Positions 11,501-63,796 of a stretch of 64,000 nt of DNA are shown here, in pieces; positions within the stretch are counted from its first letter, which is position 1, and each line of letters begins with the position of its first letter. Both the position numbers and the translations under genes were made by a program. The notes below the pieces were generated by a model. That model saw only the letters and a list, made by a program, of their open reading frames with translations, was not told the DNA's origin and made no database searches. Origin of the DNA: Aplysia californica (Eukaryota); NCBI RefSeq assembly GCF_000002075.1, contig NW_004797650.1:298249-362248 (forward strand), given 5' to 3'.

Positions 11501-14500
11501 TGCACATCATTTTGACCCAGCCTAGAAGGGTTTATTCTATTTTGGAAGTGATTGTACATTTTGAATTTGTATGAATTCCGTTTTCTTCAAATTATCACTT
11601 CCTAAATTCAGAATTTGTGTGGACCTCTTATGTTATATTATCATGTATTTTCTTCCTTTAGATTTCCATCAAGTTCACCAATGAGCCCCCGCAGGGAGTC
11701 AAGGCGGGTCTAAAGAGGACGTACGCTGGTGTCACACAGGACTTCCTGGACATCTCCAACATGCCCCAGTGGAAACCAATGCTCTATGGAGTGGCCTTCT
11801 TGCACACTGTTGTTCAGGAGAGGAGAAAGTTTGGTCCTTTGGGCTGGAACATTCCTTATGAGTTCAACACATCTGACTTCAATGCTAGTATTCAGTTTGT
11901 GCAAAACCATCTGGATGACATGGACCCAAAGAAGGTTAGTATTGCAATGTGTTCAGTCTGAAGTTGGTTTTGTTCCATCTCAGCAGAGGATAGTGTTTGT
12001 GCTGTATTGATCTACATTAGTAATTTTCTATCTTATTTCAACCAGCACCCTTGTATCCGTCACAACCTAGGTGGTCCCCGCCAGGTCTTGGGAGAAAAAT
12101 CTTTAGAAGCTGCAGGAAGCAGAATCATTTATGAGCAAAAAAGGAGTGTGAAAGCTTTAATCATATTACAAACCAACAGCTGTTTCAGGATATAATTTTT
12201 AAAAGTTTGTCAATTTGTACTGTCTTCCAGACTACTCTGTTCACAGAAAATAGCTAAGACAGCTTCTTCCAACATGACTGACCGTCTCCGGACAATCGCC
12301 TTGTACTTCAAAGCATCAAGGGAAATGACTATTTCATTCATAGAAATGACAATAGAATTAAGATATTTGCCTCTCAGAAATAATCCGTATGTTTTCATTC
12401 ATTTTTTTAAAAGTTCAAGAACTGAGTTGCTGTTGGAACAGCCAAGCAACTGAACCGAGGTTTGATTTTCCTTGAGACTCACAAGTGTGCCGATTTATCA
12501 ATATTACTCTCTATTGTGCACTTTCGTATCTTCCTCCAGGGAGTGACGTGGGTCACAGTGCACTACATGTTTGGTGAGATCCAATATGGTGGCCGCGTCA
12601 CTGATGACTATGACAAGCGTCTGCTCAACACCTTCTGTTCAGTCTGGTTCGGAGAGAAGATGTTCGAGCCCAACTTCGTCTTCTACAAGGGCTACAACAT
12701 TCCCAAGTGTACAAAGATCAATGAGTACCATGAGTACATCAACGACCTGCCCTCTACCGACGCCCCTGAAGTGTTTGGACTTAATGCTAATGCAGATATC
12801 ACGTAAGGATTGGGTTTTGTCCTTTTTACAAATTGTGGGATGTATGAATACATTAACCCCCTTGTCGACCTGTTTTGATTTTTAGAAACAGTGGAACATT
12901 CTCCTAATCAATTAAAATCTTGAAGAAATTGTTTTGCCGTTATCTTTCTTTTCCTTATCTTCTCCTTCTTCCTCCTTCCTCACTAGCATTACATCAACAC
13001 TCATTGTAGAAGCTTTGATTCATTTTCTGTTAGAGCCAATAACTACCACATATATAAGATAAGATAAGATACATCTTTATTGTACACATATATGAACACA
13101 TACTCTCATTCCTCATTATTCTTTTTCTGTTGTGTTATCAGTATCCGATACTTCTTTTTAGATAAAAGGTCACCCTCTCTCTCAGATTCTCTGTACAATG
13201 TTAGTCTGTGCTAATTTGTAGCTTTCATCAGATAGGTGCATATCCTAAACAGTAATATTAATAACCTTTATATTTTTCTTCTTTGACATTCACATAACAG
13301 TTAAAACCAATACATTGCTGTGAGCTTTTGTTCTTGTCATGTTAACATACATTTTTTCCGTCGTTGTTCCCAGCAGAATTTTGGGTTTTATGAAGGCCAT
13401 TGGCCTTTATGGCAAATTGTAAAGTGAAACGATATTGTTAAAAAATTTATTATTTTTTTTATCGTTATTTATAAGAGTTGTTTTAAATCGCAAATATATT
13501 TACACTGAATTTTAGTATTTTAGCATTTTAAAGTCTAATTGTCGACAAACCGTGCAGTGAACTGTTGCGAATGCTACCAACTTGTGTTTCGCGCACTCAT
13601 ATGACCTTATGCAGTTGTGAGCGCCGTAAAACCCTGTACTACTACTACTAGGGCACCTTTATTTGAAGAGTCAGTATTTCATCTCATTGTTCTATGAAAG
13701 TTACAAAGAAAGAACTCAGCTCAAACCAAAACTTTGAAGTAATGTTCTTTGGACACAATAGTGTTTCTTTGTATACCCTGGACATATTAGAAAGAAGACA
13801 GGAATGGTAAGATGATTTTTGTTTTTAGATTTTGAATTGATGGAGGTCTTTTGGTTTCCCCTTGACTGTTTCCGTCATAATAACTTTTTCTATGACAGTG
13901 CTTTATTTAGTTTTCTGTGGAGGATATACATTTTGACCAATAGCTGTCACCGTCGTTTTATGCAAGAAAAATTGTGAAATTATGCAAACTGAGCCCAAAA
14001 ATGTGAAATTATGCGATTCTGTTAATTTTAACAAAGAATGATAAAGGAAAATAATCAGAATTTATGCCAAAATTGATAAAATTTTTCCAAATTATGCGGG
14101 GTGCATAAAACTACGGGGACAGCAATAGTTGTTTGTCTTCATGTCATAGGACGCACCAATAGCTCAGTGGGTATTGTGCTGTTATGGAATGTATGTAGGG
14201 GCCTATAACTGTAGTTTGAATCGTCAAAAGGGCATTCTTAAAATAAGGTTGTTTCTAGAGTTTTTTAAGTAGACTCATCACCTAAGCCTACTTGTTTCAG
14301 TCTTGTCAGAGACAGAGATTATAATTATTCCGAGGTCCTAACTTTTGAAGGATATAAGAGTGTTTAAAGTTAAAGGGTAAGATTCATAAAATTACAATTA
14401 TTTTTCATCATCTCACCTACTCTTTCTGCCTCCTTGACTTGAGCATTAATTTTGTACATTCATTCAAGATGCACCGGTTATTTCTCTCAATGAGATGATA

Positions 14501-17500: not shown

Positions 17501-19134
17501 TTTTTTCGTCCTTTTGTTTGTGCTTTCTTTTACCAATATCTGACTGTGGGCGGTTGGCGGGTGCTCTGGTGTGGTTTGCTCCTTTCCTATCAAACGTCTA
17601 TCGTCATTTTCTCCCCTTCTTCTTTTTATGTTTGTTACTGTCTTGTAACACCCCTAATCTTCTGGCGCTCATATGACCTTATGCAGTTGCGAGCGCCGTA
17701 AAACCTCTACTAAAACTAAAAATATCTGACTCTCAGTCAATTAGGAAAGAGGAAGTGTGCACCACCTTATGCTTGCATTGCCTCTGTTGCTCTGCAGAAA
17801 GTGACCCGTAACCACAAAGGCTGGGCCCTGGACACTGTGGTCTTGTACAACGAAGTGACCAAATTTGAGAACATTGACGCCGTGCCTCAAGAGCCACAGG
17901 AGGGTGTCTATGTCCACGGCCTCTTCCTAGATGGCGCTGGCTGGGACAAACGGAACAGCAAACTAATTGAATCAAAACCCAAGGTGAGGCTGTTTTCCCT
18001 TTGCTGATAATATTTGCTGTTCCCTATTTTATACAGCAGAAGATATTCAGAGACGTCTCTCACAAGTTCCCAGGAACTATTCGCAGACGCAGTCCCGCAC
18101 ACAGATGCACTGCTTTGGGGGTCAAACTGCGTATTGTTTGCTGCAGATCACACATATAGTCACAAATACTGTCGCAAATGAAGTATTAAAAAAAAATTTT
18201 GAAACCTAGCAGTAAAATATCAAATTATGGGTTAAAACAGGAGGTGTGCCCCCCCTAGAACACCCCCCAATTTTTTAACTTGGTCTAGAGGCACAAAGCA
18301 TTTTGATTGGTCTATCTCCATCGGAGATGTCTCCGGATAGATACTGCTGTTTTATACATTCTCAAACTGCAACTGCAAGCCTTCTTTTCATTGCTTAATA
18401 TTTCCCCTTAGTGTTCCTACTGTTGCTAGCTGTGGTAAACCCCTAGTGTCTTTAAAACCATCACTATTTTACCTGCTTAACTCTATGGTTTTACAAATCA
18501 TTGACAATGGTCAAGCTTTGTTCTCTAACAAAATGCATCGTTTGGTAATGAATTCAGAAGTTACACGTCTGTGAGTGGTTTGTGGGTGCTCTGGTGTGGT
18601 TTGCTCCTTCTTTCCTATCAAACAACTATCGTCTTATATCTCCTCCTTCATTTTTTTTGTTTGTTACTCTCTTGTAACACCTCTTATCTTCGGCAATTGT
18701 AGTGCAAGTCATCATCATCATCATTGCCTTTCTCACCCTGCATCAGGGTATAGGCCACGGACAAACACCTTCCACCTTTCTCTATCCTGGGCTAGCCTCT
18801 TGATGTTATTCCATGTCTTCCCACTTTTCTGTACATAGTGCAAGTGCAACTGCCGTAAAACGCTTACTTAAAAAAAAAAAAGAAGCTTCGTTTCATTTTT
18901 TCAAAAATGTCTATCTCCCAGGTCCTGTTTGAGTCCATGCCAGTGATTCACATCACTGCAATAAACAGCACCAGCAATGCGGACAACCCCCGCTTGTACA
19001 AATGCCCAATCTACAAAAAGCCTCGTCGTACTGACCTCACCTACATCGCGGAGGTCATCCTTCGCACTGGTCAGAACGTTGTCGCTGATCATTGGGTCCT
19101 CCGAGGTGTTGCGCTGCTCTGTGATGTCAAATAA
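21..19134 (+). CDS. DNAH5: Axonemal outer-arm dynein heavy chain (DNAH5/DNAH8 type), 3' part: stalk, AAA5, AAA6 and C-terminal domain; 21 exons, 5' part upstream of window
   Basis: Phase-consistent AG/GT exons: 21-268, 950-1025, 1730-1945, 3555-3820, 4415-4583, 5233-5388, 5644-5781, 6758-6958, 7748-7852, 8208-8461, 8955-9145, 9473-9750, 10219-10390, 10840-11066, 11662-11934, 12540-12802, 14534-14750, 15812-15964, 16758-16910, 17798-17983, 18922-19134. Motifs [55 protein letters not shown] and C-terminus [15 protein letters not shown]...[18 protein letters not shown]5 versus DNAH8 orthology cannot be settled without a tree. Confidence 0.93.
950..1025 (+). CDS. DNAH5: Dynein heavy chain exon
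   Basis: [25 protein letters not shown]. Confidence 0.88.
1730..1945 (+). CDS. DNAH5: Dynein heavy chain exon
   Basis: [17 protein letters not shown]...[10 protein letters not shown]. Confidence 0.9.
2250..2779 (-). mobile_element. tRNA-derived SINE with Deu/Nin-like central domain and I/Nimb-like 3' tail (diverged copy)
   Basis: Colinear with the copies at 32168, 52990 and 55880. Confidence 0.85.
3190..3541 (+). mobile_element. tRNA-derived CORE-like SINE with L2-like tail
   Basis: A/B boxes (TGGCCTAGTGG, GGTTCGAATCC), core TGTGTCCTTGGGAAAGGCACTT, tail TGTAAAGCGCATAGAG...TAAATGC(ATT)n; second copy at 60945. Confidence 0.88.
3555..3820 (+). CDS. DNAH5: Dynein heavy chain exon
   Basis: [10 protein letters not shown]...[21 protein letters not shown]. 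Confidence 0.9.
4020..4195 (+). mobile_element. ~175-bp non-tRNA retroposon (GTGGGTGGTTGG family)
   Basis: 12-bp TSD tcacatcacaga; stem-loop tail. Confidence 0.85.
4415..4583 (+). CDS. DNAH5: Dynein heavy chain exon
   Basis: [23 protein letters not shown]. Confidence 0.9.
5233..5388 (+). CDS. DNAH5: Dynein heavy chain exon (AAA5)
   Basis: [19 protein letters not shown]...[17 protein letters not shown]. Confidence 0.92.
5644..5781 (+). CDS. DNAH5: Dynein heavy chain exon (not in ORF track)
   Basis: [46 protein letters not shown]. Confidence 0.9.
6098..6494. mobile_element. Harbinger-like MITE
   Basis: ~30-bp TIR GGCAGCGTGGTGGAATCAGGCTC(C/T)TGTCAA; tta/tca flanks. Confidence 0.8.
6758..6958 (+). 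CDS. DNAH5: Dynein heavy chain exon
   Basis: [13 protein letters not shown]...[16 protein letters not shown]. Confidence 0.92.
7748..7852 (+). CDS. DNAH5: Dynein heavy chain exon (not in ORF track)
   Basis: [35 protein letters not shown]. Confidence 0.9.
8208..8461 (+). CDS. DNAH5: Dynein heavy chain exon
   Basis: [10 protein letters not shown]...[18 protein letters not shown]. Confidence 0.92.
8690..8830 (+). mobile_element. Partial CORE-like SINE
   Basis: gttgtgtccttgagtaaggcatttt...ctcacttcacccaggtgggaatggatacctggctatag matches the 3190/60945 family. Confidence 0.75.
8955..9145 (+). CDS. DNAH5: Dynein heavy chain exon
   Basis: [17 protein letters not shown]...RGLYESDK. Confidence 0.9.
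9473..9750 (+). CDS. DNAH5: Dynein heavy chain exon
   Basis: [13 protein letters not shown]...[17 protein letters not shown]. Confidence 0.9.
10219..10390 (+). CDS. DNAH5: Dynein heavy chain exon
   Basis: [13 protein letters not shown]...[12 protein letters not shown]. Confidence 0.9.
10840..11066 (+). CDS. DNAH5: Dynein heavy chain exon (AAA6)
   Basis: [18 protein letters not shown]...[11 protein letters not shown]. Confidence 0.92.
11662..11934 (+). CDS. DNAH5: Dynein heavy chain exon
   Basis: [21 protein letters not shown]...[17 protein letters not shown]. Confidence 0.92.
12540..12802 (+). CDS. DNAH5: Dynein heavy chain exon
   Basis: [29 protein letters not shown]. Confidence 0.92.
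13351..13650 (+). mobile_element. 3' end of I-group (Nimb/I-like) LINE
   Basis: Encodes [22 protein letters not shown], resembling an I-group ORF2 C-terminus, then 3' UTR, stem-loop and (CTA)n tail. Confidence 0.7.
13944..14122. mobile_element. 179-bp MITE
   Basis: TIR CTGTC(A/C)CCGT.GTTTTATGCA; caatag on both sides; inverted copy at 16404-16582. Confidence 0.8.
14534..14750 (+). CDS. DNAH5: Dynein heavy chain exon
   Basis: [31 protein letters not shown]. Confidence 0.92.
15183..15421. mobile_element. piggyBac-like MITE
   Basis: TTAA(A)-CCCTGTCTGTACG ... CGTATGGATAGGG-TTAA. Confidence 0.5.
15560..15795. repeat. 60-bp minisatellite (about 3.5 units)
   Basis: Unit atctcatcttgtcatattcatgtatatatgcacatattattaggagtaaagatctttctc. 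Confidence 0.9.
15812..15964 (+). CDS. DNAH5: Dynein heavy chain exon
   Basis: ELDRMQIVI...[21 protein letters not shown]. Confidence 0.92.
16404..16582. mobile_element. 179-bp MITE (same family as 13944); related pieces at 16090-16331
   Basis: Reverse complement of 13944-14122. Confidence 0.8.
16758..16910 (+). CDS. DNAH5: Dynein heavy chain exon (not in ORF track)
   Basis: [15 protein letters not shown]...[18 protein letters not shown]. Confidence 0.92.
17013..17182 (-). mobile_element. RTE LINE 3' fragment
   Basis: Reverse translation [16 protein letters not shown]...[11 protein letters not shown]; (GAA)n tail; TSD ttttctgaac. Confidence 0.8.
17546..17720 (+). mobile_element. ~175-bp non-tRNA retroposon
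   Basis: TSD aatatctgact (17535-17545 and 17721-17731). Confidence 0.88.
17798..17983 (+). CDS. DNAH5: Dynein heavy chain exon
   Basis: [12 protein letters not shown]...[16 protein letters not shown]. Confidence 0.9.
18570..18880 (+). mobile_element. ~175-bp retroposon split by an RTE fragment
   Basis: Family body 18570-18709, tail 18846-18880. Confidence 0.75.
18710..18835 (-). mobile_element. RTE LINE 3' fragment
   Basis: Resembles the 3' end of the 46929 RTE; (TGA)n tail; TSD tagtgcaagt. Confidence 0.8.
18922..19134 (+). CDS. DNAH5: Dynein heavy chain last coding exon
   Basis: [11 protein letters not shown]...[14 protein letters not shown]. Confidence 0.93.
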
Positions 19135-21499: not shown

Positions 21500-22060
21500 T
21501 CAGTAGTATAGGGTTTTACGGCGCTCACAACTGCGTAAGGTCATATGAGCACGCGAAACACAAGTTGGTCTTGTTCACAACAGTTCGCTGTACGGCTGGC
21601 TCAGGTCAGTAGTTAAATCTTAAAATGTTTAAAAATCAGTGTAAATATACATATATTTTCAATCCAAAACAATTTTTTCTAGTTGACATAAAAATTTTAA
21701 ATAGTACAGTTTTACTTTACAATTTGCCATAAAGGCCAATGGCCTCCATAAAATTCAAAATTTTGCTGGGACCAACGACGGAAAAAATCAAAAGGTCTTT
21801 GGAAAGTTTTAGTTTTAGTAAGAGTTTTACGGCACTTGCAACAAAATAAGGTCATAATATAAGTGCCGAAGAATAGAGGTGTTACAAGAGAGTAACAAAC
21901 AAAAAAAAGAAGGAGGAGAGATCAGGACAATAGATGTTTGATAGGAAAGAAGGAGCAAACCACACCAGAGCACCCGCCAACCACCCACGGTCTTTGGAAA
22001 TTTGTTAAACTTTGGCCATCTCAATAAATTAGAACGCACACAGTGTGACCCACACACATA
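21500..22060 (-). mobile_element. 3' end of the same I-group LINE, interrupted by the 21806-21988 element
   Basis: [23 protein letters not shown] plus UTR and stem-loop. Confidence 0.7.
21806..21988 (-). mobile_element. ~175-bp non-tRNA retroposon inserted in a LINE fragment
   Basis: TSD ggtctttggaaa (21794-21805 and 21989-22000). Confidence 0.88.
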
Positions 22061-27860: not shown

Positions 27861-30587
27861 CTGCAAAGGAATATAATAAAAATATGAGTGGCATTATGAA
27901 AATAAGAAAAAGAAAGAAGAGACGAAAAGTTGACAACGCAATCTAAATTTAAAGACTGAACAAAGTTTTTGGCAAAAGCCAGTTCCTCCGCAAGAGAAAC
28001 AGAATAGGCTGCACAAAGCAACAAATTTTTCTAGACAACAGGATAGTTTATTGTTACCTATAAGAGTTGTTTTAAATCACAAATATATTTACACTGAATT
28101 TTAATATTTTAACATTTTAGCATTTCAAAGTCAATTAGTTAACCAATCGTGCTGTAAACTTTTGCGAAAGTAAACAATTTGTGTTTCGCGCGCTCATATG
28201 ACCTTAGCAGTTGCGAGCGCCGTAAAACCCTGTACTACATACATGCATACAACAGGATAGGAGGTCAAAGGAGAACAATTTAGAGAAAAAAATATTTTTC
28301 TCCTTTGCAGGTTTCAATCCAAAGAACTTTAGACAGAGAGGTGAACACTGTACTTTTAGACTATAAGAGCCCCATATTCAATAGTCAATATGAGAATGAC
28401 ACTCTTGCAATAATACAGCAAATGCAGGTCTAAATACCTTCAAATACTTTGTATTTATATCAAGACCTCTGAGAGCAAAAAAAAGTTACATCCCAACACA
28501 AGAGAGAGCTTAGTCTTACCGACGGGTGGTGAGGTTGTGGATACTGCCAAAGGCAATAGCAACCACTGTGCAGGCCAAGCAGATGACGTTGTACGGCATG
28601 GAGAAGTCAGGGGTGGGCAGAGAGACCACCAAGCTCTCTGAGTGTACACGGACTAAGTAAGACGAAGAATTGTCATTCAGGCTGAGGAAAAATAAAGAGG
28701 GAGGCAGCTCAGAGCTAGATTACTTGAACACCTGGGCTTGTGACCGTGAATTTCTCAAGCTTGAGTATTTATTAACTCCTACAAATGAAAACCTGTGACC
28801 ATGAATTTCTCAAGCTTGAGTATTTCTTAACTCCTACAAATAAAAACCTGTGACCGTAAATTTCTCATGCTCAAATATCTCCCTCACAATTCCCACAGCT
28901 GCAACGACAAATTTTGGGATACAGAAAAGACTCAGAGTATTGCAAATTCCACAGTAGTCTATGTGTACAGTTTAATACAGCTTTACCTGAGCTTTCCTTA
29001 ACCCTTTAACAGATCCATGCCACAAGTACATAATACCTGACCTACATCATTTTGACTCCCTCAGAAATGGAAACATTACTGCCTGACTTTTGAAATTGCA
29101 GATGTTAGTCTTCAGAGTTAAAGACAGACCAGACAGGTATGTATATGTGGTCATCTTATATTATACATTAAAACTGAGTAAAAAAGGACACCAAACTGAC
29201 AAAGTTTGATATAACACAAAACCCTTACATGGTATCAAGCTTGGAGAAATAGAGAGGTGGGGCACTGTACTGTCGAGATGTTGGAAGCATGGAGGATATC
29301 ACGGCAGAGCCGATGTAAAATCCGTGATTCGCATCTGGAGGGTACTCGGTCCACTTGAGGAATGCGCGAGTGAAAGAGAAGCTGACACGAGTCACAGAGT
29401 GAGGCCACAGGTTGAACGAGAGCTCGAGATGGTAGGGGCGGACGCGGTCTTTGGCTGGTGTGAAGTGGACTTTGACTGAAAAGGAAAGCGCAGTCAGTTG
29501 TGTAAGGTTTACAACACTCGCTGTCAATTTTCCAAACATGATGCAGTCATGAGGGTGGATGACACATAGTCATTAAACGGCTTGAAAGAAATTGAAAAAT
29601 TGAGGAAAGAGAAATTATCCGCGATGTGAAGACCAAAATGCTGTAGAGTATTTGTAACTGCTGCTTCATCCACAAAAAGTCCCATTGGAAATTTATGGGG
29701 AATGAAAAAATATCTCAAAAAAGATTACACAATGATTTCAAAGAATCAAAAGTCATTTATGCGAATATTTTAAAAACATAATTTTTTTCAAAGTCTTCCT
29801 GTATTCTGTTGGCCTGAAACCACTCCAGTTTGGTTGCAGCTGTGAAGGGTTGAATCAACATGAATTAATTATCCTAAAAAAGCACTATTCTAGACAGTAA
29901 CAGTTCTCCATCAAGTTTCCAGGCAGTCAAGTATGACTTCATACATATTTTGCAAGGAACATATTAAGACCAAAAATCACCAACACAGAAGACAGAAGGA
30001 ACATGTAACACACCAGTACCAACCAACCACAAGCCTGTATCAGAAGGGCACCAAGAAAGCAAAACAACACTCTAACAAAATAAAAAGCGCAAACACTCAC
30101 AGGGCACATCTAGACCATTATTTTGAACCGTCAAGGAGTTGAAGAAAACTCGGGTGAACCAGGGTAGCACATCCATGTAGATCACAGTCTGATTCCTATC
30201 CAGAGTGTTGGTGATCAGACAGCTCACACCTCCGTCCTCTAGACCATACCCTGCAGAGCCAACAACAGAGGTGAGTCAAGTCATAAGGAAAATTGCCTCT
30301 CTGCCCAATGATTGTTCTCTATTACTTAATTAATTCTCTTCAAACAATAATTGGGCATAAAGCCTCCATCATAAATCATCATTTCTTTCTCAAACAACTG
30401 TAACCAGACCTGCCACTCTATGAAATCTCAAAATCAGGATCTCAGCAGGGAAAAAATCGGGATTTGGTCAAAAATAAAAAAACCCAACAGGATCAACAGC
30501 AAATCACCACGGTGACTACACAGACTTACACATTTTTCGGGGGTGTCCATAACTGTAAGCCCTTTGTGCGTGTTTGTTTGTTTGTTT

Positions 30588-30636
<49 letters not shown>

Positions 30637-33118
30637 ATTATTATTTTTTTTAAATCTTGAAGCATCACGTCAAGCACTCATAGTCCAAGTGTCTAACCCT
30701 CCCCCCACCCCCCACCAGTAACAAACAAATCTCCACAAGTCCCAAAAGACACTAGAACCAGCGTGCATGAACTTAAGTTGACCCCATCAACGGACGGTCC
30801 CCTACACACGTGGAACTCATACCCCAAAGTCATGTCACGTAATGCGAACGGGCCATTGAAAGTTTTATTGACCAGCTCGGTATACCGGGAGCCCATTGCG
30901 GGTCGGGCCGATCGCCCTACTCGTCGCCAGAAAACAAATGCGTTTGTTTTTGAGGCGTGATCGGCTTGTGCCACAATAGCCGCTTTGCGCCCTCAATCTG
31001 GCTAGCAAACCGACCCGACCCGATCCCCCGATGGGCACCCAACCACTCAGACAAGCGACAGTCGTTCTAGGCTAATGATAACGGCCGACTAACCGAATGT
31101 ACCAACAAATCCCTTTTCCCTCATAGGCATTCAGACCAAGGCGATGACAACGGCCAAGTTTTAGTTTAGCCAGCCCAGTCAGTTGTGTAAGGTTTAGAAT
31201 GACTTTCGCTCGTCTGAGTGTTTGGTGTGAACACACGGTCACTAGACCTCGGACGACGCTTGCTTTGAAAGTAACTGCAAAACTACCAATATTATCGATT
31301 ATTTGTATGTCGCAGTTGTCACAGTTATAAGGCTATCATCGGAGTATTCTGAGTGCGGGCAAAGTTCAAACACATCTTGGAACAAGTTAGCTACTAAATC
31401 CGGCATCGATATTTGGGAAAATAATGCTCCGAGTTCCTATCGACATAAAGTAAAATGGGTGCTTCCCAAAATAGAGAAGAAGGCAGAGTAAGTCTTTCGA
31501 AAAATCCGGCGCAACAGTAGACTGGAACAAAAATTCAGGACACATGTGATGAAAATTGGGATGCTTGAGATTAGGGGCAAAAAGTTGGGATATCCCCACT
31601 AAATTGGGATGAGTGGCAGGTCTGTGTAACTAAAAATAAGTACCAAATTTCACTAAAACTCAAATTTTAGCAACTCAGAATCTTAAAAAAAGACCTATAT
31701 TAGCATTTTCCACCTGTGATGTATCTGTGCGCATGGATGGGTGGTGGGTCCAACTCTTTCACTTTCGACGGGTCATTATATGTGCCTGCTATGTTCAAAC
31801 CACGGCCAACTTCAGTAAAAGAGCGTACATTATAGACTGAATATGTGTGCTGCCCAGTGCCTCTGGTCACTGTGTGAGTCCATGTTGGTGTGGGTGTCAG
31901 TCTATACGCTGGAGATGCCTGTGGAATAGAATCACACATAATAATCAAATATCGCACCAGACTGAAGAAAAAGAATGTTAATAGACAATACGAAAAGTTT
32001 TCTGTTTTAAGGAAATAAAATATTGGAAAAAACCGTACACATCAATAAAACAGAAACCAAAAGTCCTTTATTATTCACAGAACAATAGAAATATAATATC
32101 TTCATAATGTACTTTTAAAGCTTAAACTGAATTATTAGTTGAACATGTATTATCTGAACAGGGAAAAGGGGGCTCTTGTGGCCTAGAGGTTAAGGTGTTC
32201 GCCTCTTATTCAAAGGTCCCAGGTTCGAATCTGGGTAGCGACCAAAAAATTTTCTTCTCTAAATTTGTCTCCTTTCACATCCTTTCCTACTTTCTAGCAA
32301 TGTTCTTTCGTCTGCTTTCGTCTCCTCTTTCTGCCCCCCACCCCTTCACCTCCTTTGCCCCCTCCTGTGGGCTCCTGATTCTTTCTGCAGCCTTTCTACT
32401 GCTACTCATTGGCTTCTTCTTACTGCTGTCTTTCAGCCACACCCTGATCTTCTGGTAGGAAAGATCTACACCTAGCCTTCTCGGACAAGGGCGAAAAATC
32501 TCGGAGGTCCCGTGTGAAAGCTGTGCAAGTTAAAGATCCTTTGGTGGTCTAAAATCGATAAGAGTAGGCTTCGGCCGCCACCCGGGCAAAATTCAAAATT
32601 TCCTTCCAACTGAAAAAGTTTAGTGCGTCCCGCGCGCTCATACGACCTTATGCAGTTGCGAGCGCCGTAAAACACTTACAAAAACAAAAAAACAAGAACA
32701 GGGAAAAATTTTGACACCAAAATCAAAATCTCCAAAATTAGTTAATGTAATGGGTAGATATTTTTCAAATAATACTTTAGTTTATACCTATTCCATCTAG
32801 GAAAACAAAATGTACTTATTTTCACAATCACACTAAAAGAAGGTTGTATCTTGCTCAGTGGTAGCTTACCTCATTGTCAGTAGTTTCAACCATAATACTT
32901 GTCTTACTAGCAATTGGGCAAGCAGACGCCAGGTGGTTACCAAAAAGACTTCTGAGAGACCAATCTGAGCAACACGAAAAGCAAAACATTTGTAGACAAT
33001 GGTGGAAAAAAAAAGTCGTCGTCAAAAAAAGGCCGTACGGAGGTACATTGGATGGGGCTCAATAAACAAACACATACAAACATACATTGACGATCCTAAA
33101 TCAAGAGAGAGAGAGAGG

Positions 33119-33159
<41 letters not shown>

Positions 33160-36100
33160 CAAGCTATACAAAAGTGCACAAAACAAGTAGGACATAAAGG
33201 CAGAGTCACAGAGATCAAATTTAAGGATAATGGGAGTGCTTACTTTGGGTGTCAGCTCCAAGACAAAATAGATACACACAAAAAAAAACCCAAAACAAAA
33301 CAAAGCTGAAAGAATGTAGGCTAAAAAAAACGAAAGGAAAGAAAAGAAAACGAAACAAAAAATGAGATGAAACACATTAACGTGTACTTGAACCTTCGTA
33401 TTGATGGCAACAGAATCCGGCACAGCACGAAATCAATGCTTATTGAGGCGTCGTATAAAAGTAATCTGATCAGATATGATGTAAGATCTGACATTTAGAA
33501 TTCTTTNNNNNNNNNNNNNNNNNNNNNNNNNNNNNNNNNNNNNNNNNNNNNNNNNNNNNNNNNNNNNNNNNNNNNNNNNNNNNNNNNNNNNNNNNNNNNN
33601 NNNNNNNNNNNNNNNNNNNNNNNNNNNNNNNNNNNNNNNNNNNNNNNNNNNNNNNNNNNNNNNNNNNNNNNNNNNNNNNNNNNNNNNNNNNNNNNNNNNN
33701 NNNNNNNNNNNNNNNNNNNNNNNNNNNNNNNNNNNNNNNNNNNNNNNNNNNNNNNNNNNNNNNNNNNNNNNNNNNNNNNNNNNNNNNNNNNNNNNNNNNN
33801 NNNNNNNNNNNNNNNNNNNNNNNNNNNNNNNNNNNNNNNNNNNNNNNNNNNNNNNNNNNNNNNNNNNNNNNNNNNNNNNNNNNNNNNNNNNNNNNNNNNN
33901 NNNNNNNNNNNNNNNNNNNNNNNNNNNNNNNNNNNNNNNNNNNNNNNNNNNNNNNNNNNNNNNNNNNNNNNNNNNNNNNNNNNNNNNNNNNNNNNNNNNN
34001 NNNNNNNNNNNNNNNNNNNNNNNNNNNNNNNNNNNNNNNNNNNNNNNNNNNNNNNNNNNNNNNNNNNNNNNNNNNNNNNNNNNNNNNNNNNNNNNNNNNN
34101 NNNNNNNNNNNNNNNNNNNNNNNNNNNNNNNNNNNNNNNNNNNNNNNNNNNNNNNNNNNNNNNNNNNNNNNNNNNNNNNNNNNNNNNNNNNNNNNNNNNN
34201 NNNNNNNNNNNNNNNNNNNNNNNNNCCCCCCAACAGGGCAGTGCTTCTGACTGAAGTTGTCTTTAGGCATTCCTAAAGGGGGGATATAAACATTTCTTAT
34301 GCACAGCAGAATCGTAAATGGGTTGATTAATCAATGTCATGCTCATACTGTGCCTGAACAACATAGGGGGAACTGTTGCTTTTTCTTTCCTCATTCTTAC
34401 TATCGTCATTTTTCCTCTACTTCTTTTGTATGTTTGTCACTCTCTTGTGAACTGTTATTTCCAGGGTGCCTTGATAGTCGAAGCAGACTTTGTGCTGCTG
34501 AGGCTAGAGAGGTGAGCAGAGTAAGCCTGATTCCTCGTTTCGACTTCTCTGTTGGCATCCACCCCTCGGCACTCATATGACCGTATGCAGTTGCGAGCGC
34601 CGTAAAACCTTACTATATTAAACTAAACAAAAGACCTGAAACTAATTCTGATATGAAAATGTATGTACATTCCTAAAAACTCACAGCACAAATTGGCCGC
34701 ACATGAAGACCAAGAGAATGATAATTCGCATCATGGAAGTGAAAGGCGTTGAACAAAGTTGATAAACCAGCCTGAAAAAGAATGGTTAAGAATCACACTT
34801 TGAATAAACTCCTACAAATACAAATTCTCTCAACTTCAAATATTAACTCTTCAACCACTGTGTGTCTAAAAAAAATCTGAGAAAGTCAGTAAGCTCTGAC
34901 AAAAATTAAATATGGTTCTTTTCATATTACCTTGTGGTGCTATTTCTTCAAGATTTCTTTTATCATTAAATTCTTGATAAATCTTATTTACCGATAAAAT
35001 TTAAAGTAAATTACTGACAGTTGAAAATAATACAATAATGATCCAGAAATGGTATATCTTTAAACTTCATAGCAAAGAAAGTCATCCCCAAAAAGCAATG
35101 TACCTTGGAGTCACAAGGCAGCAATTTTTTCCACGGTGTCAAGTTCTCAGTACAGACAATCTCTCTGGGCAGAGTGCCATAGCGCACAAAATGAGAGGAC
35201 ACAGAATAACCCTGAGGGGCAAGTCCTGCTGGTCTAAAACTCCAGCGTGGGGCAATCGTGCTCCGTGAGTCCAGGAAGTTGAGAGAAGAACAAAACAGAC
35301 CCGAGACAGCATTAACCAGTTCAGTCCAGGCCTTGTCCACACTGAGAAGAAAATTAAAGCACACAGCAGAAATATAACAAATCGTTTGTGGAATCATAAG
35401 CATATAATAGTGGGAAAAATATCCTAAAATGTACGGTTTAATAGCATTTATGTCAGAATATTAAAAGAGCGTTTATTTAGCTTTTTCTTCCAAACATCCT
35501 GAGCCAAAACATGTAAGCTTGAGTGAAGACTGAGCACTGATCGTTGCAAAAAGAAAGAAAAGAGAGACATTGAGAAAGGTCACAGAGAAGACAAGTGTCC
35601 ATTTGGATGGAGGCAGGGAAGACAGCCCAGAACCGACACAGATTTATAAGACTGGTAAATGGTACACTATGTTAAGTAGGGAGCCACAGGTCAAAGTCAA
35701 GTAAGTAAACAGTTAAATAAAGTTTACCTATATACATATATGAGGGTGCGGTGGCAGAGCGGTTAGTGCGCTTGTCTCTGAAGCGGAAAGTCCGGGTTCG
35801 AGCCTCGGTTCAGACACTGATTTTTTTCGCCCCCTCCTGCCCACCCAGCAGTAATGGGTACCTGACTTCCAGTTGGGGAAGTAAAAGCGGCATGGAAAGG
35901 AACTGGCCACCCTACCACAATATGCCAAAGGCCCAGGAAGTTGTCTCACTAACAAGGCAATCCCCAATGTCCGGATCGGAAGCGGGAACAACTTTACTTT
36001 TACTTTATATACACATATATTTCAGTAATCAATATATGGCATTGATTAAATACAACACTAATATTCTGTACTGCTTACTCTTTCACACTTGGTCTGAACC

Positions 36101-55900: not shown

Positions 55901-58900
55901 TGTTTTACGGCGCTTGCAACTGCTTATGGTCGTATGAGCACGCAGGACGCACTAAACAATTTGAGTCGGTAGAAAATTTTTGAATTTTTGCATGGGTGGC
56001 GGCCAAAGCCTACTCTTAGTCTTATCAATTTTAGACCGCCAAGGGATCTTTAACGTGCGCAACTTGCACACGAAACCTCTGAAATTTATCACCCTTGTCC
56101 GAGAAGGCTAGGTTCTTTCCTACCAGAAGATCAGGGGTGTGGCTGAAAGACGGCAGTAAGAAGGGGTCAAGGAGTAGCATTAGAAAAGCTGCAGAAAGAC
56201 TCGCGATCCCAGAGGGGGAAAAGGAGGTGAGGGGGTGGGGGGTAGAAAGTGGAGATGGAAGCAGAAAACAGAACATTGCTAGAGGGCAGGAAAGGAGGAT
56301 AAAGGAGACAATTTTAGAACAGAAAATTTTTCCGTCACTACCCAGATTCGAACCCAGGACCTTTGAATGAGAGGCGGACACCTTAATCTCAAGGCCACGA
56401 GAGCCCCCAATACAAGTTGTGTATTTCCTGTTTTGTTTACAGTGTTTTGAAACACTTGCGCATGGGATGTGAAATTGTATATATATGTGTTTTTGTTTTT
56501 TCTGATGCAGGTACAATGGAAGACTGGGATGAAGCCACTTTGGAAGATGTCATCAATAAAAAGCATGGGGAAAGTGAGAAAACCAAACCTAAAACAGGAA
56601 TTGTGAGTGCTTTGTTTGGTGTGTGGGGTAGGAAAACTAGGACAAGTTTTGATGGTGGACAATCTTTGGAGGCTTGTCTGGAGCAACTTCTTTCCATGCT
56701 GTCTTTGTAAATCGTTGTGCCATATTTCCTTTGACTATTTTCAGTATAATCTTCGAGAAAGAAGCTTCAGCTTGGTGGGTGGTTGGCGGGTGCTCTGGTG
56801 TGGTTTGCTCCTTCTTTCCTATCAAGCATCTATCGACCTTATCTCCCCTCCTTCTTTTTTATGTTTGTTACTCTCTTGTAACACCTCTAATCTTCTGGCG
56901 CTCATATGACCTTATGCAGTTGCGAGCGCCGTAAAATCTCTACTAAAACTAAACTAAACTAAAGCTTCAGCTTTGCGAATCAAATGATTATACCGTATTT
57001 TCAGATTGCAGAGGCTTGGCGTTATCATTTGTTTCGTTTGTGATCTTTTTGAAATAGAAATTCTCATTATGAGTTCAGCTTAATGGCTAGGGCTCTTTTG
57101 AAAAGGTTGTTGTTCTTACTCCCTATATGATTAATTGTGGTGTTACTGTTGGGTTGGCAGGTGCTCTGGTGTGGTTTGCTTCTTCTTTCCTATCAAACAT
57201 CTATTGTCCTTATCTCTCCTCCTTCTTTTTTGGGTTTGTTACTGTCTTGTAACACCTCTAATCTTCGGCACTTATATGACCTTATTCAACTTATTGTGTT
57301 GCAGGTTCCTACTAAAAAAATGTTGAGTTGTCTTGTTACAGGTAAAAAAAATTTTTTGGCAAAAAAGAAATACTTGAATGTGAGATTTCTGTTTTTGTAA
57401 TTAATGTAATCGCTGATTGGAAGGGCATGTTTGGTCCTCACATGTAGTGCTCGAAGCAAGCGCTGATTATGACTTTTTTTTTCTCTCTCAGATTTGCAAA
57501 TTTTTCCTTGATGCGGTGGAGAACAGCAAATACGGCTGGTTCTGGGAGTGTCCAAACGGGCCTAAATGTATTTACAGGCACGCACTTCCTCCTGGTGAGT
57601 TGGCTCTTGCAGACACTGTCACTCTCTCAGTCTCTTGTCTTAACAATTTTGTGACAACCTATGTCTACTTGTGTATCTATACATGAGATGTTTGGGTTAC
57701 AAAACAACCATATCACACAAGCTGCTGGCTTGATCACTCCCACTGAGGTCATAGTTGATTAAGAGAAAATGGAATTTTTTTAGTTGTGAAGTAACTTTAA
57801 AAATTATTAGTATGAAATTGTCTGTTGCCTCTATTGTTTACCAACAATTGACTTTGTTAAAGTTTAGGTTCATTGTGACCAGAAAGTCATAAATTGATAT
57901 TTCTGATCTGATTTGTGATTTCCACATTCATAAGTGTTTGAGGAAATTTACATTATGACAAAAAAGTTATAAATTGATTGCAGCTATCATTAGGGTTAAA
58001 GAAATGTTTGTGGACATTTTGGAAAGGATATGTTTTTATGCTTGGCCTTGCTTCAAAGAGTAAAATGCTGGTGTGAGGGCAGATGTTTCAATTTGTGGCA
58101 ACAGGGAGGGATGAGACGAAGATCGTACCAGAAATAACCATGAGAATTTATGAATAATAGAAATTGAAACTTTTTCCCCCTTTTAAAAAAAAATTCAGGG
58201 TTTGTTCTGAAGAAGGATCAGAAGAAGGAAGACAAGGAAGAAAAGATTTCTATAGAAGACTTGGTGGAGACAGAGGTACGTAACTAGAGAAGTGTTTCTT
58301 CAGATTTGTTTGTTTGTTTTTTAAAAAGTTTTCTGGAGAACTGCACAACCTGTTTGCACGCTGTGTTGTTGTTGTTGTTGTTATCAATCCAGCAACAGCT
58401 GGGCTCTCACCCTTCTGTCCAATGCCATGTAGTGATAAGTGCAGGTCTGCTGCAGTTGCTGTAATTGCATGCTGTGTATCATCATGGATTTGTGCAAAAA
58501 AAAATTTTCCTTTGGGCCATATTAAGCGATTGTTTTTATTCTTTACATTTGTTATCTTTAATTAATTTTTTAAAATTTTTATTATTTTCTTGAAGCGATT
58601 GTTCTTATTCTTTACAAATGTTATTTTTATTACTTATAAAGGCTGCATGTTGAAATGGGTTTATTAAACTTGTGAAACCCTCTACTATAAAAAAAACCCC
58701 CCAAAAACATTGTAAATCTTTGTCAGCACCAAGTAATTCCTGTAGGGACATGACATCATGATGACCTCTGTGACTTGTTGGAGCACAGAAGTAACGTATT
58801 GTCAGTGCCTGTCATGACAGCTGGCTCTATTATCATTTTATGTGAATGTCTGCTATTCTTTTTGATTTTGGGGAGGGGGGTGGGGGTTGTTAACAGTATA

Positions 58901-61900
58901 GTGGGACCTATTGTTCTTTTATTCTTGGAGTGAATGCCATGGACACCCTTTTGAAAAACTCCTATGTGAGGAAGTGTGGTCAAATCAGGCACTCGTCAAA
59001 ATAAGGAAATCAGAGAAACTGGCATTTTCCCACCAGTTTGGAAATTTTTGTTGAATTTTTGTTTTTTGGCTCGTCCCATTTATGTCCTTATAAATGCAGA
59101 TTTCCAGGTGAATTTTACGGAAAAACATTGATCAAAGGCTCAAAATATGTCTTTTTCACTTTTCAAGGTTTCTTTAGCTATTGGAGTTATTAAACTTCGG
59201 CTGTCATTTTCTCGCTAATTTCACCTCTGAAACCAGGTGACTTCACCTCCTTCAATCACATTTATCTTGACTTTTCTTCAAGATAATTTGGATATATATT
59301 TCCCTGGAAGCAAGGCTCGTGAATCAGCTTTCAGACTATACCTTTACTTGAGATGCCCAAAAATTGACGGGCGCCTGATTCCATCGCGTCGTGAGGCATA
59401 TGTTTCTGTGTATTACGTGTGTTGTCTGATTGTATACTGTTTAAAATAATGTAAGACGTTTTACTTCAGCCATGTGAAGCATCTTAAAATTAGTTTCTAC
59501 CTTCTAAATACTTTTCAATTCTGATATGTTGTAGAGAAATGGATGTCTACAGCTGTGTTGTCATTATGCTTTGCCTTAACTGATTATTATCATTTTCTGT
59601 GTCTTTGTCTTTCAGAGAGCTGCTTTGGGATTTAATGTAACCAAGGTGACACTGGAAACCTTTCTTAAGTGGAAAGAGAGAAAGGTTTGCATTTGTTATT
59701 CTTTGCTTGTTTTTAATCCTTTTTTCTCCCCTTTTGTCTCTCAGCAAACATGGGAGACTACCAGTCTAGACTTGAAGATTCAGTGGTGTCTACTTGTCAG
59801 CGCCCCAAATATGAGCCACATCTGACTAACACCAACCTAAACTTGTGTAACGGAATTTTGTTATATAGATAACCTCTTTTTATAGTATCTTTTGCCTCTA
59901 ATGGCAACCTTTCTTGCCATATTTTGATCATTCAAAATTTCTGGGAACACCACGACTTGCCCCTTTTCTCTTGTTTATCTCCTCACAACTCCTACTTGGG
60001 CCAAAAATACACTGCACTGAGTACCAGGTGCTCTGGTATGGTTTGCTCCTTCTTTCCTATCAAACATCTATCGTCCTTATCTCCCCTTCTTCTTTTTTAT
60101 ATTTGTTACTCTCTTGTAATACCTCTATTCTTCTGGCGCTCATATGACCTTATGCAGTTGCGAGTGCCGTAAAACCTCTACTAAAACTAAAAAACTGAGT
60201 ACCAGAACTCTGTTTACTCCCCATCACCAAGAGCTGTCTGTAAGGCAGACACCACTGTAATTTCAAAAGTATTTCAATCTCTGTTTAGAAGACTTATCCA
60301 GAATTGACAAGATTGTTTCAGAAATGTGTAAGGAAATATTGTGTTGTGGTGGGTAAATATTAAGGCATCATAGTGGAGCATGCAGTTATAATACTGTTCT
60401 GATGAAAAGATCTTCTAATTTTCTGAACATTTTCACTCTGTTGAAATCAGATCATGCAGTTAGAATAGTTACATGGTGATGATCTTTTCTCATCCTAGCT
60501 GCATTCTCAGATTGTGGGTGGTTGGCGGGTGCTCTGGTGTGGTTTGCTACTTCTTTCCTATGAAACATCTATCGTCCTTATCTCCCCTTCTTCTTTTTTA
60601 TGTTTGTTACTCTCTTGTAACACCTGTAATCTTCTGGCGCTCATATGCAGTTGGGAGCGCCGTAAAACCTCAACTAAAACTAAACTAAAACTAATTCTCA
60701 GATTTCCATGATTTTTCTACTGTTACATATAGCTGGAGATGGACAATTGCATGTGATGTTCACAAGAATGACATTTTTACATAAATTTTTACTCTTTTTT
60801 TAATGTCACCACAGAAAAGAGAAAAGTTGGAGCAGCACTATGAAGAACAGGAAAAGAAGAAAGCTGACTACAAGGCTGGACGCACTGTTGGGGTATGTAG
60901 TCACTCTATGTGCCGGTATGCTGTTTACTTGGTGGGAAAATGTTCGGTGGCCTAGTGGTTAGTCTCTCGGACTCGCAACCGTAAGGTTGTGGGTTCGAAT
61001 CCCGTCAGGGGCCCGACGTTGTGTCCTTGGGAAAGACACTTTACACAAATTTCCCTCACTTCACCCAGGTGGGAATGGGTACCCGGCTATAGATAGCGAA
61101 AGATCTTGTCAGTTTGTTAGTGTTTGAGCGCTTAATCAGCTGCTTGCACTGTATGCTTCCCGGGAAGCTGAGAATGTTTCGGAGTGTTCTGTGGTCTGCT
61201 GGGGTAATAATAGTTGTAAAGCGCATAGAGCCTGCAGTTGAGCGGGGATATGCGCTATACAAATGCTATTTATTATTATTATTCTTCACTCTTTGCTTGT
61301 CACAGCGTACTGATAGCTAGGTCTTGGTCTATTTCCAGTTACATCTTATTTGATAAAGTTTTTCTATTGTTTGTTTGTATCCTGATGTGAGACCTGTTCA
61401 TTTTCTTACTGTTCTCTTTGTATTTCTATTGTTAAATGGTTGGCAGGTGCTCAAGAAGAGTCTGCTCATTTTTGTTGGTAATACAAATCGTGACCCCAGT
61501 GCTTTTTTTGTCATATTTCCATTTTTAAGAACAGTGAAAACAGTACATCACAAAGAGTGAGTTTAAGAAGATGTCACATTTTTACTGTTAAAATAAATGA
61601 AGATACGACAAGGAAGCACTGAGGTCACGAAATAGTGCAGTCTGCTTTTAGGTGCTGTATCAACTCATTGCAAATTACAACTTGCCAACAGAAAGATTGT
61701 CCTGTTGTCTCATATATTTTGTACCTGAATGTGGAAGTTATTGTCATTTATGTGTTTATTGGCATGTGTAGGAATATTAAAGTATCATGCAAATTTCACC
61801 TGCATTCTACTTGTAGATTGGACCTCTTGCTGGATGCCAGAATTTCAAAGTTTGTTTCCTTTCATAACAGATCAGTGGTCGTCAAATGTTTGAGTTCAAT

Positions 61901-62838: not shown

Positions 62839-63796
62839 TAGCAATGCCAATCCCCCGCTGCGCCTTGTGCTGGAAATCGGCCTCCGCGCGAGGGGTATTT
62901 TTTGGGCCGCTCGGAATCAGAAGTGACTCTCTTCTAAGTTTAGTTACGGGAAAACTCCTGGACGAAAATAAATGAAACTCGGCAACCAACCAGAGGAAAG
63001 TTTAAACTAACGACATGCCAGCGTACAATCCCGAACGATTACTAGAACCAGAGATATTGCCGTGTTTGTGAGAATTTCCTCTGCGGTTCGAAAACTAAGC
63101 GGAGCTGCGGGTTGATCGCCGACCACACAAGCGCCCCACATGTCTTCTTTATTGCTGTAAAATTTCAGATCTCTGCGTTTAGTAGATTTTCCGTACCAAC
63201 TTAAAATTACCACCCACCCATTGATAAAACACTAGATCTAGAAACTTAATCGCGCATTCCAAACGCGAGGTGCCGGCATGCAAGAGGCGCGTGATCGCTA
63301 GGCGGCATGTGATTGGCTGCCTATAACCAAATGGGTCACCGATGACTACATCGCGGGTTTTCCCGATAGCGCTTTACTGAGTTTTAGAAGGGGTGATCGC
63401 GTCGCGGTAAAAACGATGTCACGCAATTCAACAAATTTCACGCAAATATCAGTCTTTAAGATCCAAAGTAATGAAGACAACGAAAAAGTGATAGCAGAAC
63501 TAGAATTGGCACTAAAAATCACATGGAGATGCCAAGTTTCATTCATATGCTCCAATTCATTACTGGCTTATGAACAGTTTTTCCTCAAAATACATCAAAA
63601 CATGTCCCACATTTTGGCGATTTTTTCCTATATGAAGGTCCTCCAACATTTTGCAAACAAAAATCCCAATAACTTTTTTATTTATCAATGGATTTTTAAA
63701 ATTTAAAAACCACAGTTCTTAGAATTTACTCTAGTTTCATTTAAGCCCATTTTTAAGCAATTCGGATGAAAATTTAATTTTTCATTGTCATTGCTA
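62839..63796. mobile_element. 958-bp non-autonomous TIR DNA transposon, copy 2
   Basis: Flanked by cataatg on both sides. Confidence 0.9.

What the first reader, a model, noticed from the sequence alone, without database searches (positions are those of the whole stretch)
56762..56973. ~175-bp retroposon with a fixed 5' end but no Pol III promoter
Seen: TSD-defined copies at 4020, 17546, 21988(-), 56774 and 60514 start within 1 nt of the same GTGGG(T/C)GGTTG(G/A)C(G/A)GGTGCTCTGG. There is no GTTCGA B box and no tRNA/5S/7SL-like head that I can recognise, and an internal run of 5-6 T would stop Pol III. Random 5' truncation of a LINE would give ragged ends. Inference: the 5' end is set by an upstream-promoter master gene, by RNA processing or self-cleavage, or by a defined RT stop near the GG-rich head. 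Eight copies in 64 kb suggest a very abundant, possibly undescribed SINE class.
Basis: partly seen in the sequence, partly recalled or inferred. Interest (0 to 1): 0.7.

Follow-up and report, generated by a model that had tools for sequence, protein, structure and literature searches.

The report
Abundant retroposon lacking a tRNA head
A 175-base jumping element with tens of thousands of copies in this gastropod genome ends in the same RNA hairpin as a resident LINE and starts at one exact base without any tRNA-type promoter, so it is likely a minimal, polymerase II-driven passenger of that LINE, a variant of a loosely known kind whose start signal is still untested.

Summary
Eight copies lie in the window, six start at the same G, and 10,972 exact 29-base heads occur genome-wide. 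Of 40 copies with an exact target-site duplication, 32 start at +1, and no shared upstream sequence was seen. About half of the 3'-intact copies are 5'-truncated, as in the genome's tRNA SINE. There is no A or B box, tRNA or Rfam match, and a T6 run is fixed. New here: the last ~41 nt are the 3' stem-loop of a resident I/Nimb-type LINE with intact ORF2 copies. The element is a mosaic: a 26-nt G-rich head shared with an older family B, a pyrimidine body shared with family C, and a tail present in two versions. All four combinations of two markers occur, which points to several source copies rather than one master gene. The head matches no LINE 5' terminus; B's head resembles an internal Nimb 5'UTR stretch only weakly. 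Best reading (0.55): an LP-SINE-like or bipartite-like Nimb passenger started by an internal Pol II signal. That step is untested, and Repbase and Dfam could not be searched.

The parts
56762..56773 (+). Left target-site duplication (12 nt)
   Evidence: exact repeat of 56962-56973
56774..56774 (+). One extra G between the TSD and the family's +1
   Evidence: seen in 1 of 40 TSD-defined copies; G is not enriched at -1 in 133 copies (13% vs 20% background)
56775..56800 (+). G-rich head (~26 nt), shared with older family B; candidate internal start signal (inferred)
   Evidence: 22 of 26 columns identical to the B head, 0 of 500 shuffles as good; 10,972 exact 29-mers genome-wide, control 0
56803..56890 (+). 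Pyrimidine-rich body, homologous to the middle of family C
   Evidence: score 85 vs shuffle maximum 57 of 500
56855..56860 (+). T6 run, a would-be Pol III terminator upstream of the tail
   Evidence: sequence; T5-T8 in 52 of 52 young copies, while the two tRNA SINE majority sequences have at most T4
56897..56936 (+). 3' stem-loop (stem 56897-56903 with 56924-56930) plus GTAAAA, shared with the 3' end of an I/Nimb-type LINE
   Evidence: 93% over 42 columns to L116/L117; folds as a hairpin; two stem pairs switch on both sides between subfamilies A1 and A2
56937..56961 (+). A-rich end with short ACTAA(A) repeats
   Evidence: sequence
56962..56973 (+). Right target-site duplication
4021..4194 (+). 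Full-length copy, subfamily A2, with TSD
17546..17720 (+). Full-length copy, subfamily A1, with TSD
18571..18701 (+). Copy starting at +1, tail disrupted
21807..21988 (-). Full-length A2 copy with TSD, abutting a truncated LINE copy
57152..57286 (+). Older A2 copy, aligning from +7, tail disrupted
60027..60195 (+). 5'-truncated A1 copy (from about +15) with its own 11-nt TSD
60514..60693 (+). Full-length A1 copy, TSD 60503-60513 / 60694-60704, 8-nt deletion in the tail loop
41525..41635 (-). Family B copy (older sister family sharing the head; this copy aligns from B position 28)
34226..34630 (+). Family C copy (~400 bp, oligo-C start, no tRNA head, shares body and tail with A)
13351..13650 (+). 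5'-truncated copy of the tail-donor LINE
   Evidence: 79% to the L115 3' end
21502..21788 (-). 5'-truncated copy of the tail-donor LINE
   Evidence: 77% to the L115 3' end
28047..28238 (+). 5'-truncated copy of the tail-donor LINE
   Evidence: 88% to the L115 3' end
32168..32689 (+). tRNA-headed SINE with the same tail (further copies 2256-2779-, 52995-53518-, 55887-56408-); serves as the Pol III comparison
   Evidence: A and B boxes present

Best explanation
This is a non-autonomous retroposon that ends in the 3' stem-loop of a resident I/Nimb-type LINE and is likely copied by that LINE's reverse transcriptase from a short RNA that would be started by RNA polymerase II at a signal inside the 26-nt head. 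Shown: TSD-flanked insertion, the LINE-matching tail, LINE copies with an intact ORF2, a 5' end exact to the base, no A/B box, a fixed T6, and a mosaic of head (shared with family B), body (shared with family C) and two tail versions. Inferred: the LINE protein binds the stem-loop and primes at the A-rich end (the general SINE-LINE model); Pol II rather than Pol III makes the RNA; the head is the start signal, so many copies can become sources; head and body are remnants of older Nimb 5'UTR modules joined by template switching.
For: Tail: 93% over 42 columns to the LINE 3' end, 0 of 500 shuffles. The LINE ORF2 (1226 aa) has APE, RT and RNase H domains. TSDs are 9-15 nt. 5' end: 32 of 40 at +1. 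Base composition falls to background at -1 in 133 copies. 61% of 17,958 exact +7..+29 matches also carry +1..+6 exactly, about what ~8% decay per site predicts if nearly all reach +1. In one contig set, 1,096 loose ends at +1 agree only 0.37. Against Pol III: the three non-tRNA families carry T5-T6 runs, the two tRNA SINEs at most T4. For several sources: among copies not selected by the query, position 36 C/T and tail A1/A2 occur as 10, 12, 36 and 16 copies, and A1 (1.9-11.9% divergence) overlaps A2 (2.5-18.4%). The head is the only part A and B share. B's tail matches the second Nimb family L111 (0 of 500 shuffles), and B's head aligns best with that same family's 5'UTR (p 0.001-0.02 in four copies). 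Nimb 5'UTRs here stack and swap leaders. LP-SINEs with LINE-derived heads are described in molluscs (PMC4758252, section 10).
Against: No promoter activity or discrete RNA is shown. In three poly(A) runs the element is ~0.1% of reads, on both strands, and runs on into unlike flanks, with no place where many molecules begin; such libraries would probably miss a 180-nt RNA. A's own head matches none of the 10 LINE 5'UTRs from 6 families tested (p 0.25-0.99), nor the upstream DNA of 13 foreign Nimb relatives. The B-head match was first spotted by eye, is about p 0.05 after correction for 18 comparisons, and is not significant by nhmmer (E 0.2; family C vs the L111 5'UTR E 0.64). A's body vs the LINE 5'UTRs is not significant (p 0.31, 0.65). 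There is no excess cap-type G at -1 (the LINE itself shows none either). No LINE with the exact A2 tail was found (18 of 18 pattern hits were A copies or tail-only insertions). The 5' ends of two RNase H-bearing LINE families were not reached.
Confidence: 0.55

Rival explanations
1. The RNA is cut or trimmed out of host Pol II transcripts that read through intronic or UTR copies; the G-rich head marks an endonuclease site or stalls a 5'-3' exonuclease.
For: Read-through RNA is plentiful (15,000-20,000 reads per run, both strands). This needs no promoter, tolerates T6 and allows many sources. The head has four GG tracts, and ViennaRNA with quadruplexes allowed folds one in the B head.
Against: With quadruplexes allowed, A's first 70 nt fold as a hairpin, not a quadruplex. 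Start precision equals that of the Pol III tRNA SINE. A and B share no common fold beyond 26 nt.
Confidence: 0.17
2. A few master genes sit behind external promoters (snRNA-type or an ordinary Pol II promoter), and all dispersed copies are dead on arrival.
For: It explains an exact +1 with no internal box. A could have arisen when a truncated C-like copy replaced B's 3' part at such a locus. A single-copy upstream promoter would be invisible in majority-based tests.
Against: Four marker combinations are all common and of overlapping age, which one linear master lineage cannot give without recurrent change or conversion. B, A2 and A1 all start at the same base.
Confidence: 0.14
3. The head is a degenerate tRNA or other small-RNA head still read by Pol III, which in this animal reads through T6.
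For: By eye, positions 14-26 resemble the start of the resident tRNA SINE. The +1 is a G, as in that SINE.
Against: That similarity is not significant (p 0.19; CORE-type SINE p 0.61), there is no A or B box, there is no Rfam or ARAGORN hit, and the genome's tRNA SINEs avoid T5 or longer.
Confidence: 0.07
4. A self-cleaving ribozyme or a fixed RT stop sets the 5' end of a longer template.
For: HDV-like ribozymes define the 5' ends of several LINE clades (PMC5786205 section 23), and +1 is a G.
Against: No Rfam ribozyme hit, no hammerhead core, and the one loose HDV-descriptor hit rests largely on G-U pairs and is absent from B (the descriptor had no positive control). No upstream-extended copies: 164 of 173 head matches continue into A or B bodies and none of the other 9 into a recognisable LINE.
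Confidence: 0.07

Closest known systems
LP-SINEs ('LINE promoter' SINEs) of Littorina, Haliotis, Ostrea, Saccostrea and pectinid MESC SINEs (Matetovici et al. 2016, PMC4758252; read: section 10, passages, supplement 4 part 1 of 5; main Fig. 3 alignment not visible)
   Same: Mollusc host group, TSDs, short 3' repeats, no small-RNA head, proposed Pol II transcription, a pyrimidine tract after the head, and an ACTAAA hexamer near the 3' end.
   Different: Their ~70-bp head is the Nimb-17_LMi-type 5' terminus. By eye, the pectinid head in supplementary Fig. S2 is unrelated to this 26-nt G-rich head. Here the tail donor LINE is identified in the same genome, and the head matches no LINE terminus.
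Bipartite non-autonomous LINEs (RIME, NARTc, Bov-A, Vingi and R2 SIDE derivatives; Kojima 2018, PMC5786205; read: parts 1-2 of 5, passages, section 23)
   Same: Short, ORF-less, LINE 3' end, fixed 5' end, thought to be Pol II-transcribed.
   Different: They usually keep the LINE's extreme 5' end and were reported only for RTE, Ingi, Vingi and R2. This element has a Nimb-type tail, lacks the LINE's oligo-C 5' terminus, and is a three-part mosaic.
tRNA SINEs with Nimb tails in molluscs (BivaV, BivaMeta; PMC11481361 passages and supplement search, PMC4824008 passages)
   Same: The same tail layout; the S. constricta I/Nimb 3' end shown in the supplement shares the TATGACCT...GCCGTAAAAC pattern (compared by eye). 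Tail swapping between families.
   Different: They have tRNA heads with A and B boxes.
Bird SINEs with GC-rich heads of unknown origin (as cited in PMC7245038, passage, and PMC5786205)
   Same: Uniform head of unknown origin and unknown transcription mode on a LINE-derived 3' part.
   Different: RTE-dependent, with bipartite RTE sequence.

Membership tests
Non-LTR retroposon (TPRT insertion) | Variable-length TSD and A-rich or microsatellite 3' end | tested here: met
   40 of 98 head-plus-tail copies have exact TSDs of 9-15 nt
Classical SINE (Pol III, small-RNA head) | tRNA, 5S, 7SL or snRNA-derived head | tested here: not met
   ARAGORN 0, Rfam 0 at gathering score, no significant alignment to two resident tRNA SINE heads
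Classical SINE (Pol III, small-RNA head) | A and B boxes, and no internal T-run terminator | tested here: not met
   no boxes, T6 fixed; positive controls show both boxes and at most T4
Classical SINE (Pol III, small-RNA head) | 3' tail shared with a partner LINE | tested here: met
LP-SINE | Head homologous to the Nimb-17_LMi / I-3_DR / RTE-9_CPB 5' domain | tested here: not met
   compared by eye with the pectinid head in supplementary Fig. S2; no shared motif; the Lsa_2 and Haliotis heads (main Fig. 3) were not visible
LP-SINE | Head derived from some LINE 5'UTR | tested here: inconclusive
   B head vs L111 internal 5'UTR p 0.001-0.02 uncorrected, nhmmer E 0.2; A head not significant
LP-SINE | Pol II promoter activity of the head | not testable with these tools
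   poly(A) reads are uninformative about starts
Bipartite non-autonomous LINE | Retains the extreme 5' end of the partner LINE | tested here: not met
   both Nimb families start with an oligo-C leader; A head vs first 120 nt p 0.63 and 0.77
Bipartite non-autonomous LINE | Retains the extreme 3' end of the partner LINE | tested here: met
Ribozyme-headed element (HDV-like or hammerhead retrozyme) | Ribozyme core and fold at the 5' end | tested here: not met
   (descriptor lacked a positive control)
Partner LINE: Nimb clade of the I superfamily | ORF1 plus ORF2 with APE, RT and RNase H; Nimb-type tail | tested here: met
   tail layout as in the I/Nimb row of PMC11481361 supplement
Partner LINE: Nimb clade of the I superfamily | RT phylogeny grouping with named Nimb references | not tested
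   no homologue carried a clade name; the label rests on domains and tail
A catalogued Repbase/Dfam/SINEBase family | Sequence match to a deposited consensus | not testable with these tools
   these libraries are not held; the head 12-mer and tail 13-mer are absent from the PMC11481361 supplements and the tail 8-mer from three of four PMC4758252 files

The most novel reading that the evidence does not exclude
The 26-nt G-rich head is a portable, self-contained RNA start signal unrelated to any small RNA or LINE terminus. It has founded two successive families (B, then A), multimerises in tandem, and drives one of the genome's most abundant repeats: a minimal promoter or processing module defining a new head class of SINE-like elements, and with families B and C the first ORF-less Nimb-dependent elements without tRNA heads traced to their LINE.
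Probability: 0.3. Interest if true: 0.65.

Novelty: new variant of a known kind. Interest (0 to 1): 0.42.

Why it matters
How SINE-like elements without small-RNA heads are transcribed is stated as open in PMC4758252 and PMC5786205. This family narrows the candidate signal to about 26 nt shared by two otherwise different families, has an identified partner LINE with intact ORF2 copies, and has a tRNA SINE with the same tail as a built-in Pol III control, so the question can be tested directly. With roughly 45,000 full-length copies (extrapolated from 20 in 345 kb of larger contigs) and ~0.1% of poly(A) reads, any promoter or poly(A) activity would affect many host genes. If the head proves inert, this is an ordinary mosaic repeat.

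Tried and rejected
RNase H family search: the top 30 loci were other LINE families without the tail; the partner came from the endonuclease search. ORF1 protein search returned only close relatives (60-100% identity) and no new family. A pattern for heads followed by neither A nor B sequence gave 288 hits vs 901 for the reversed control, with no third family evident in the 100 listed. A hybrid B/LINE pattern gave 24 hits, all B-type matches as listed. The B head pattern found nothing in metagenome contigs. Run search: no RNA holder listed. The lay on family B showed no LINE-like continuation among the 18 of 452 loose-end rows shown. Rfam on the LINE 5'UTR gave only sub-threshold matches. The haplotype tail labels had an indexing error and were redone; the lower mismatch rate in the head is biased by requiring alignments to reach the head and is not used. 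The long head hairpin of the focal copy (z -3.05) is weaker in the A1 majority sequence (z -1.67) and absent in B, so it is not treated as functional. The TSD finder was noisy; alignment starts are quoted from it instead. The host exon at 56513-56602 had no PDB match. Paper searches listed no description of this family; closed-access papers, Repbase reports and figure images were not searched.

Full report
Observation. The focal element runs from 56775 to 56961 between exact 12-nt duplications, with one extra G at 56774. BLAST of it against the window gave 17 hits: 8 body-containing copies, 8 tail-only hits and one partial body hit. Six of the eight copies begin at +1; the copy at 60027 is 5'-truncated with its own TSD, and two lack an intact tail. 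The window lies in G000, a 927-Mb animal assembly, across dynein heavy chain and Gpi16 exons. The host is likely a gastropod, probably a sea hare. This rests on a resident CORE-type SINE carrying the CCTTGGGAAAG motif that PMC5786205 reports for mollusc CORE-SINEs, on two unchecked notes of this scan and on my recall; it was not tested further.

Abundance and 5' end. Exact genome-wide counts are 10,972 for head positions 1-29 (control 0) and 17,958 for positions 7-29. In 40 unselected 10-kb stretches (344,595 non-N bases, all from larger contigs) there were 59 family A pieces. Of the 38 that are 3'-intact, 20 start at +1 to +5 and 18 between +28 and +138; 10 of those 18 are little more than the tail and could belong to other families. 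The tRNA SINE behaves alike (10 of 21 at its start), so truncation is ordinary and the full-length end is discrete. Extrapolated, that is about 45,000 full-length copies. Among 98 copies selected for head and tail, many of them top hits of the query, 40 had an exact TSD of 9-15 nt; 32 start at the +1 G and 8 carry 1-6 extra bases. In 133 copies anchored at +5, positions +1 to +4 are 77-88% conserved and -1 onward is background. In one contig set, 1,096 loose ends at +1 agree only 0.37, so no shared upstream sequence appears among the 24 of 967 rows shown.

No Pol III signature. There is no tRNA, Rfam family, A box or B box. A carries T6, B T5 and C two T5 runs, while the two tRNA SINEs, which show both boxes, carry at most T4. 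That T5-T6 stops Pol III is established knowledge for other animals and was not tested for this one.

The tail and its donor. An endonuclease-family search and 20 fetched loci yielded two related LINE families with 1226-aa ORF2s carrying APE, RT and RNase H domains. Family L114-L117 ends in the element's last 41 nt (93%); family L111-L113 ends in a related stem-loop that matches family B's tail. The same tail closes a tRNA SINE, family C and three truncated LINE copies in the window. In 121 full-length A copies the tail is bimodal (A1 56, A2 58, mixed 7), and two of seven stem pairs change on both sides (G-C 44 vs A-T 51; C-G 55 vs T-A 53). That is one subfamily switch, not many independent events. 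The layout resembles the I/Nimb 3' end in the supplement of PMC11481361 and the tails of metagenomic relatives. The clade name was not tested by a tree.

Mosaic structure. The first 26 nt are shared with family B, an older ~140-bp element (71-93% to its majority sequence) with a different body and tail, which starts at the same base and often carries tandem repeats of its 5' 67-nt unit. Positions 29-116 are homologous to the middle of family C, a ~400-bp element that starts with an oligo-C run like the LINEs. Of 173 head matches in the loci held at that point, 108 continue as A, 56 as B, and none of the other 9 as a recognisable LINE.

Origin of the head. Both Nimb families start with the same oligo-C leader, which A's head does not match. 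B's first 45 nt align to an internal stretch (about 246-277) of the L111 5'UTR just after a second oligo-C run (p 0.001-0.02 in four copies, not significant in the five other families), the same family its tail points to. I noticed this by eye first, it is borderline after correction, and nhmmer does not support it (E 0.2). Family C vs that 5'UTR is similar (no shuffle of 200 as good; nhmmer E 0.64). Nimb leaders are modular here: 4 of 30 loci carry a 387-nt L111 leader in front of a second, diverged LINE start, and 2 carry leader duplications. Four of 13 foreign relatives share the L115 5'UTR core, and one of them has, by eye, the LP-type motif of PMC4758252 directly upstream of it; none matches the A or B head. 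LINE origin of the head is therefore plausible but unproven.

Number of sources. Excluding query-selected top hits, position 36 and tail type occur in all four combinations (10, 12, 36, 16), and the divergence ranges of A1 and A2 overlap. This favours several source copies, though conversion or recurrent change could mimic it.

RNA. No listed holder is on record as RNA. Three poly(A) raw-read runs from one study laid 16,346, 14,997 and 19,785 reads (0.10-0.15%), on both strands; reads crossing +1 run on into unlike flanks, and no start site holds a fifth of the depth. These are passengers in host transcripts. The pile-ups at A-rich ends suggest oligo-dT-primed libraries, which cannot show a short RNA's 5' end.

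Mechanism and comparison. Most likely (0.55) a short Pol II transcript starts at +1 under a signal in the head, is bound at the stem-loop by the Nimb ORF2 and is inserted by target-primed reverse transcription; template switches exchanged body and tail. Processing from read-through RNA (0.17), external-promoter masters (0.14), cryptic Pol III (0.07) and ribozyme or RT stop (0.07) remain. It works like LP-SINEs (PMC4758252) and bipartite non-autonomous LINEs (PMC5786205) but fails a defining test of each: it has neither the LP head nor the LINE's extreme 5' end. Kojima lists only RTE, Ingi, Vingi and R2 as donors of ORF-less bipartite elements. Eight paper searches listed no description of this family, but Repbase, Dfam, SINEBase, figure images, one supplementary file and four fifths of supplement 4 of PMC4758252 (searched by term only) were not read, and so abundant a repeat may well be catalogued. 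Verdict: real, a new variant of a known kind, interest 0.42.

Noticed in passing
L115 (G000:C5, LINE 5' end) and L111:1021-1060: The first ~37 nt of both Nimb families can form an H-type pseudoknot (oligo-C with a G run, crossed by an 8-9-bp stem). By eye the pectinid LP head in supplementary Fig. S2 of PMC4758252 has the same layout with different stem letters.
   Followed up: partly
L242, L248, L267, L268 (also L243, L253): LINE copies in which a 387-nt L111 leader sits in front of a second, 73-77% similar LINE start, and others with duplicated leaders: 5' module stacking between Nimb families.
   Followed up: partly
L157, L159, L160, L167: Family B copies with 2-7 tandem repeats of the 5' 67-nt unit, joined at TCTG/TGTG; such joints also occur in contigs and RNA reads.
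   Followed up: partly
window 34226-34630: Family C: ~400-bp non-tRNA element with an oligo-C start and Nimb tail, 18 pieces in 345 kb; possibly a true bipartite Nimb derivative. Its 3' half aligned to the 5'UTR of another LINE family (U127; 0 of 500 shuffles, heavily gapped).
   Followed up: partly
window 56855 (element position ~81): 1,300-1,500 reads per RNA run carry a 32-37-nt T run before this place, i.e. poly(A) on the antisense strand at the A6 run: either a poly(A) site donated to host genes or internal oligo-dT priming.
   Followed up: no
L295:1-140: A metagenomic Nimb relative carries the LP-type motif directly upstream of the 5'UTR core shared with L115. From recall, this motif resembles the 3' half of RTE-type HDV-like ribozymes, so LP heads may be ribozyme remnants rather than promoters.
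   Followed up: no
window 21502-21988 (-): An A2 copy sits in what appears to be the left target duplication of a truncated Nimb LINE copy; A copies nested in other A or tRNA SINE copies also occur (L006, L008).
   Followed up: partly
window 56511-56602: Exon just upstream of the focal copy; its peptide recalls ZC3H15/Tma46 (recalled; no PDB match). The focal copy lies in the following intron in sense orientation.
   Followed up: partly
window 47849-48662 (-): Fragmented reverse-transcriptase-like frames that look like an RTE-type LINE remnant (no Pfam hit for the piece scanned).
   Followed up: no
window 54233-54637 and 63302-63706: Two nearly identical 134-aa open frames about 9 kb apart: a local duplication or assembly repeat.
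   Followed up: no
run X12 (organism B code): Families A and B are held by runs under a second organism code; in X12 the B head unit is about ten times deeper than the B tail.
   Followed up: no
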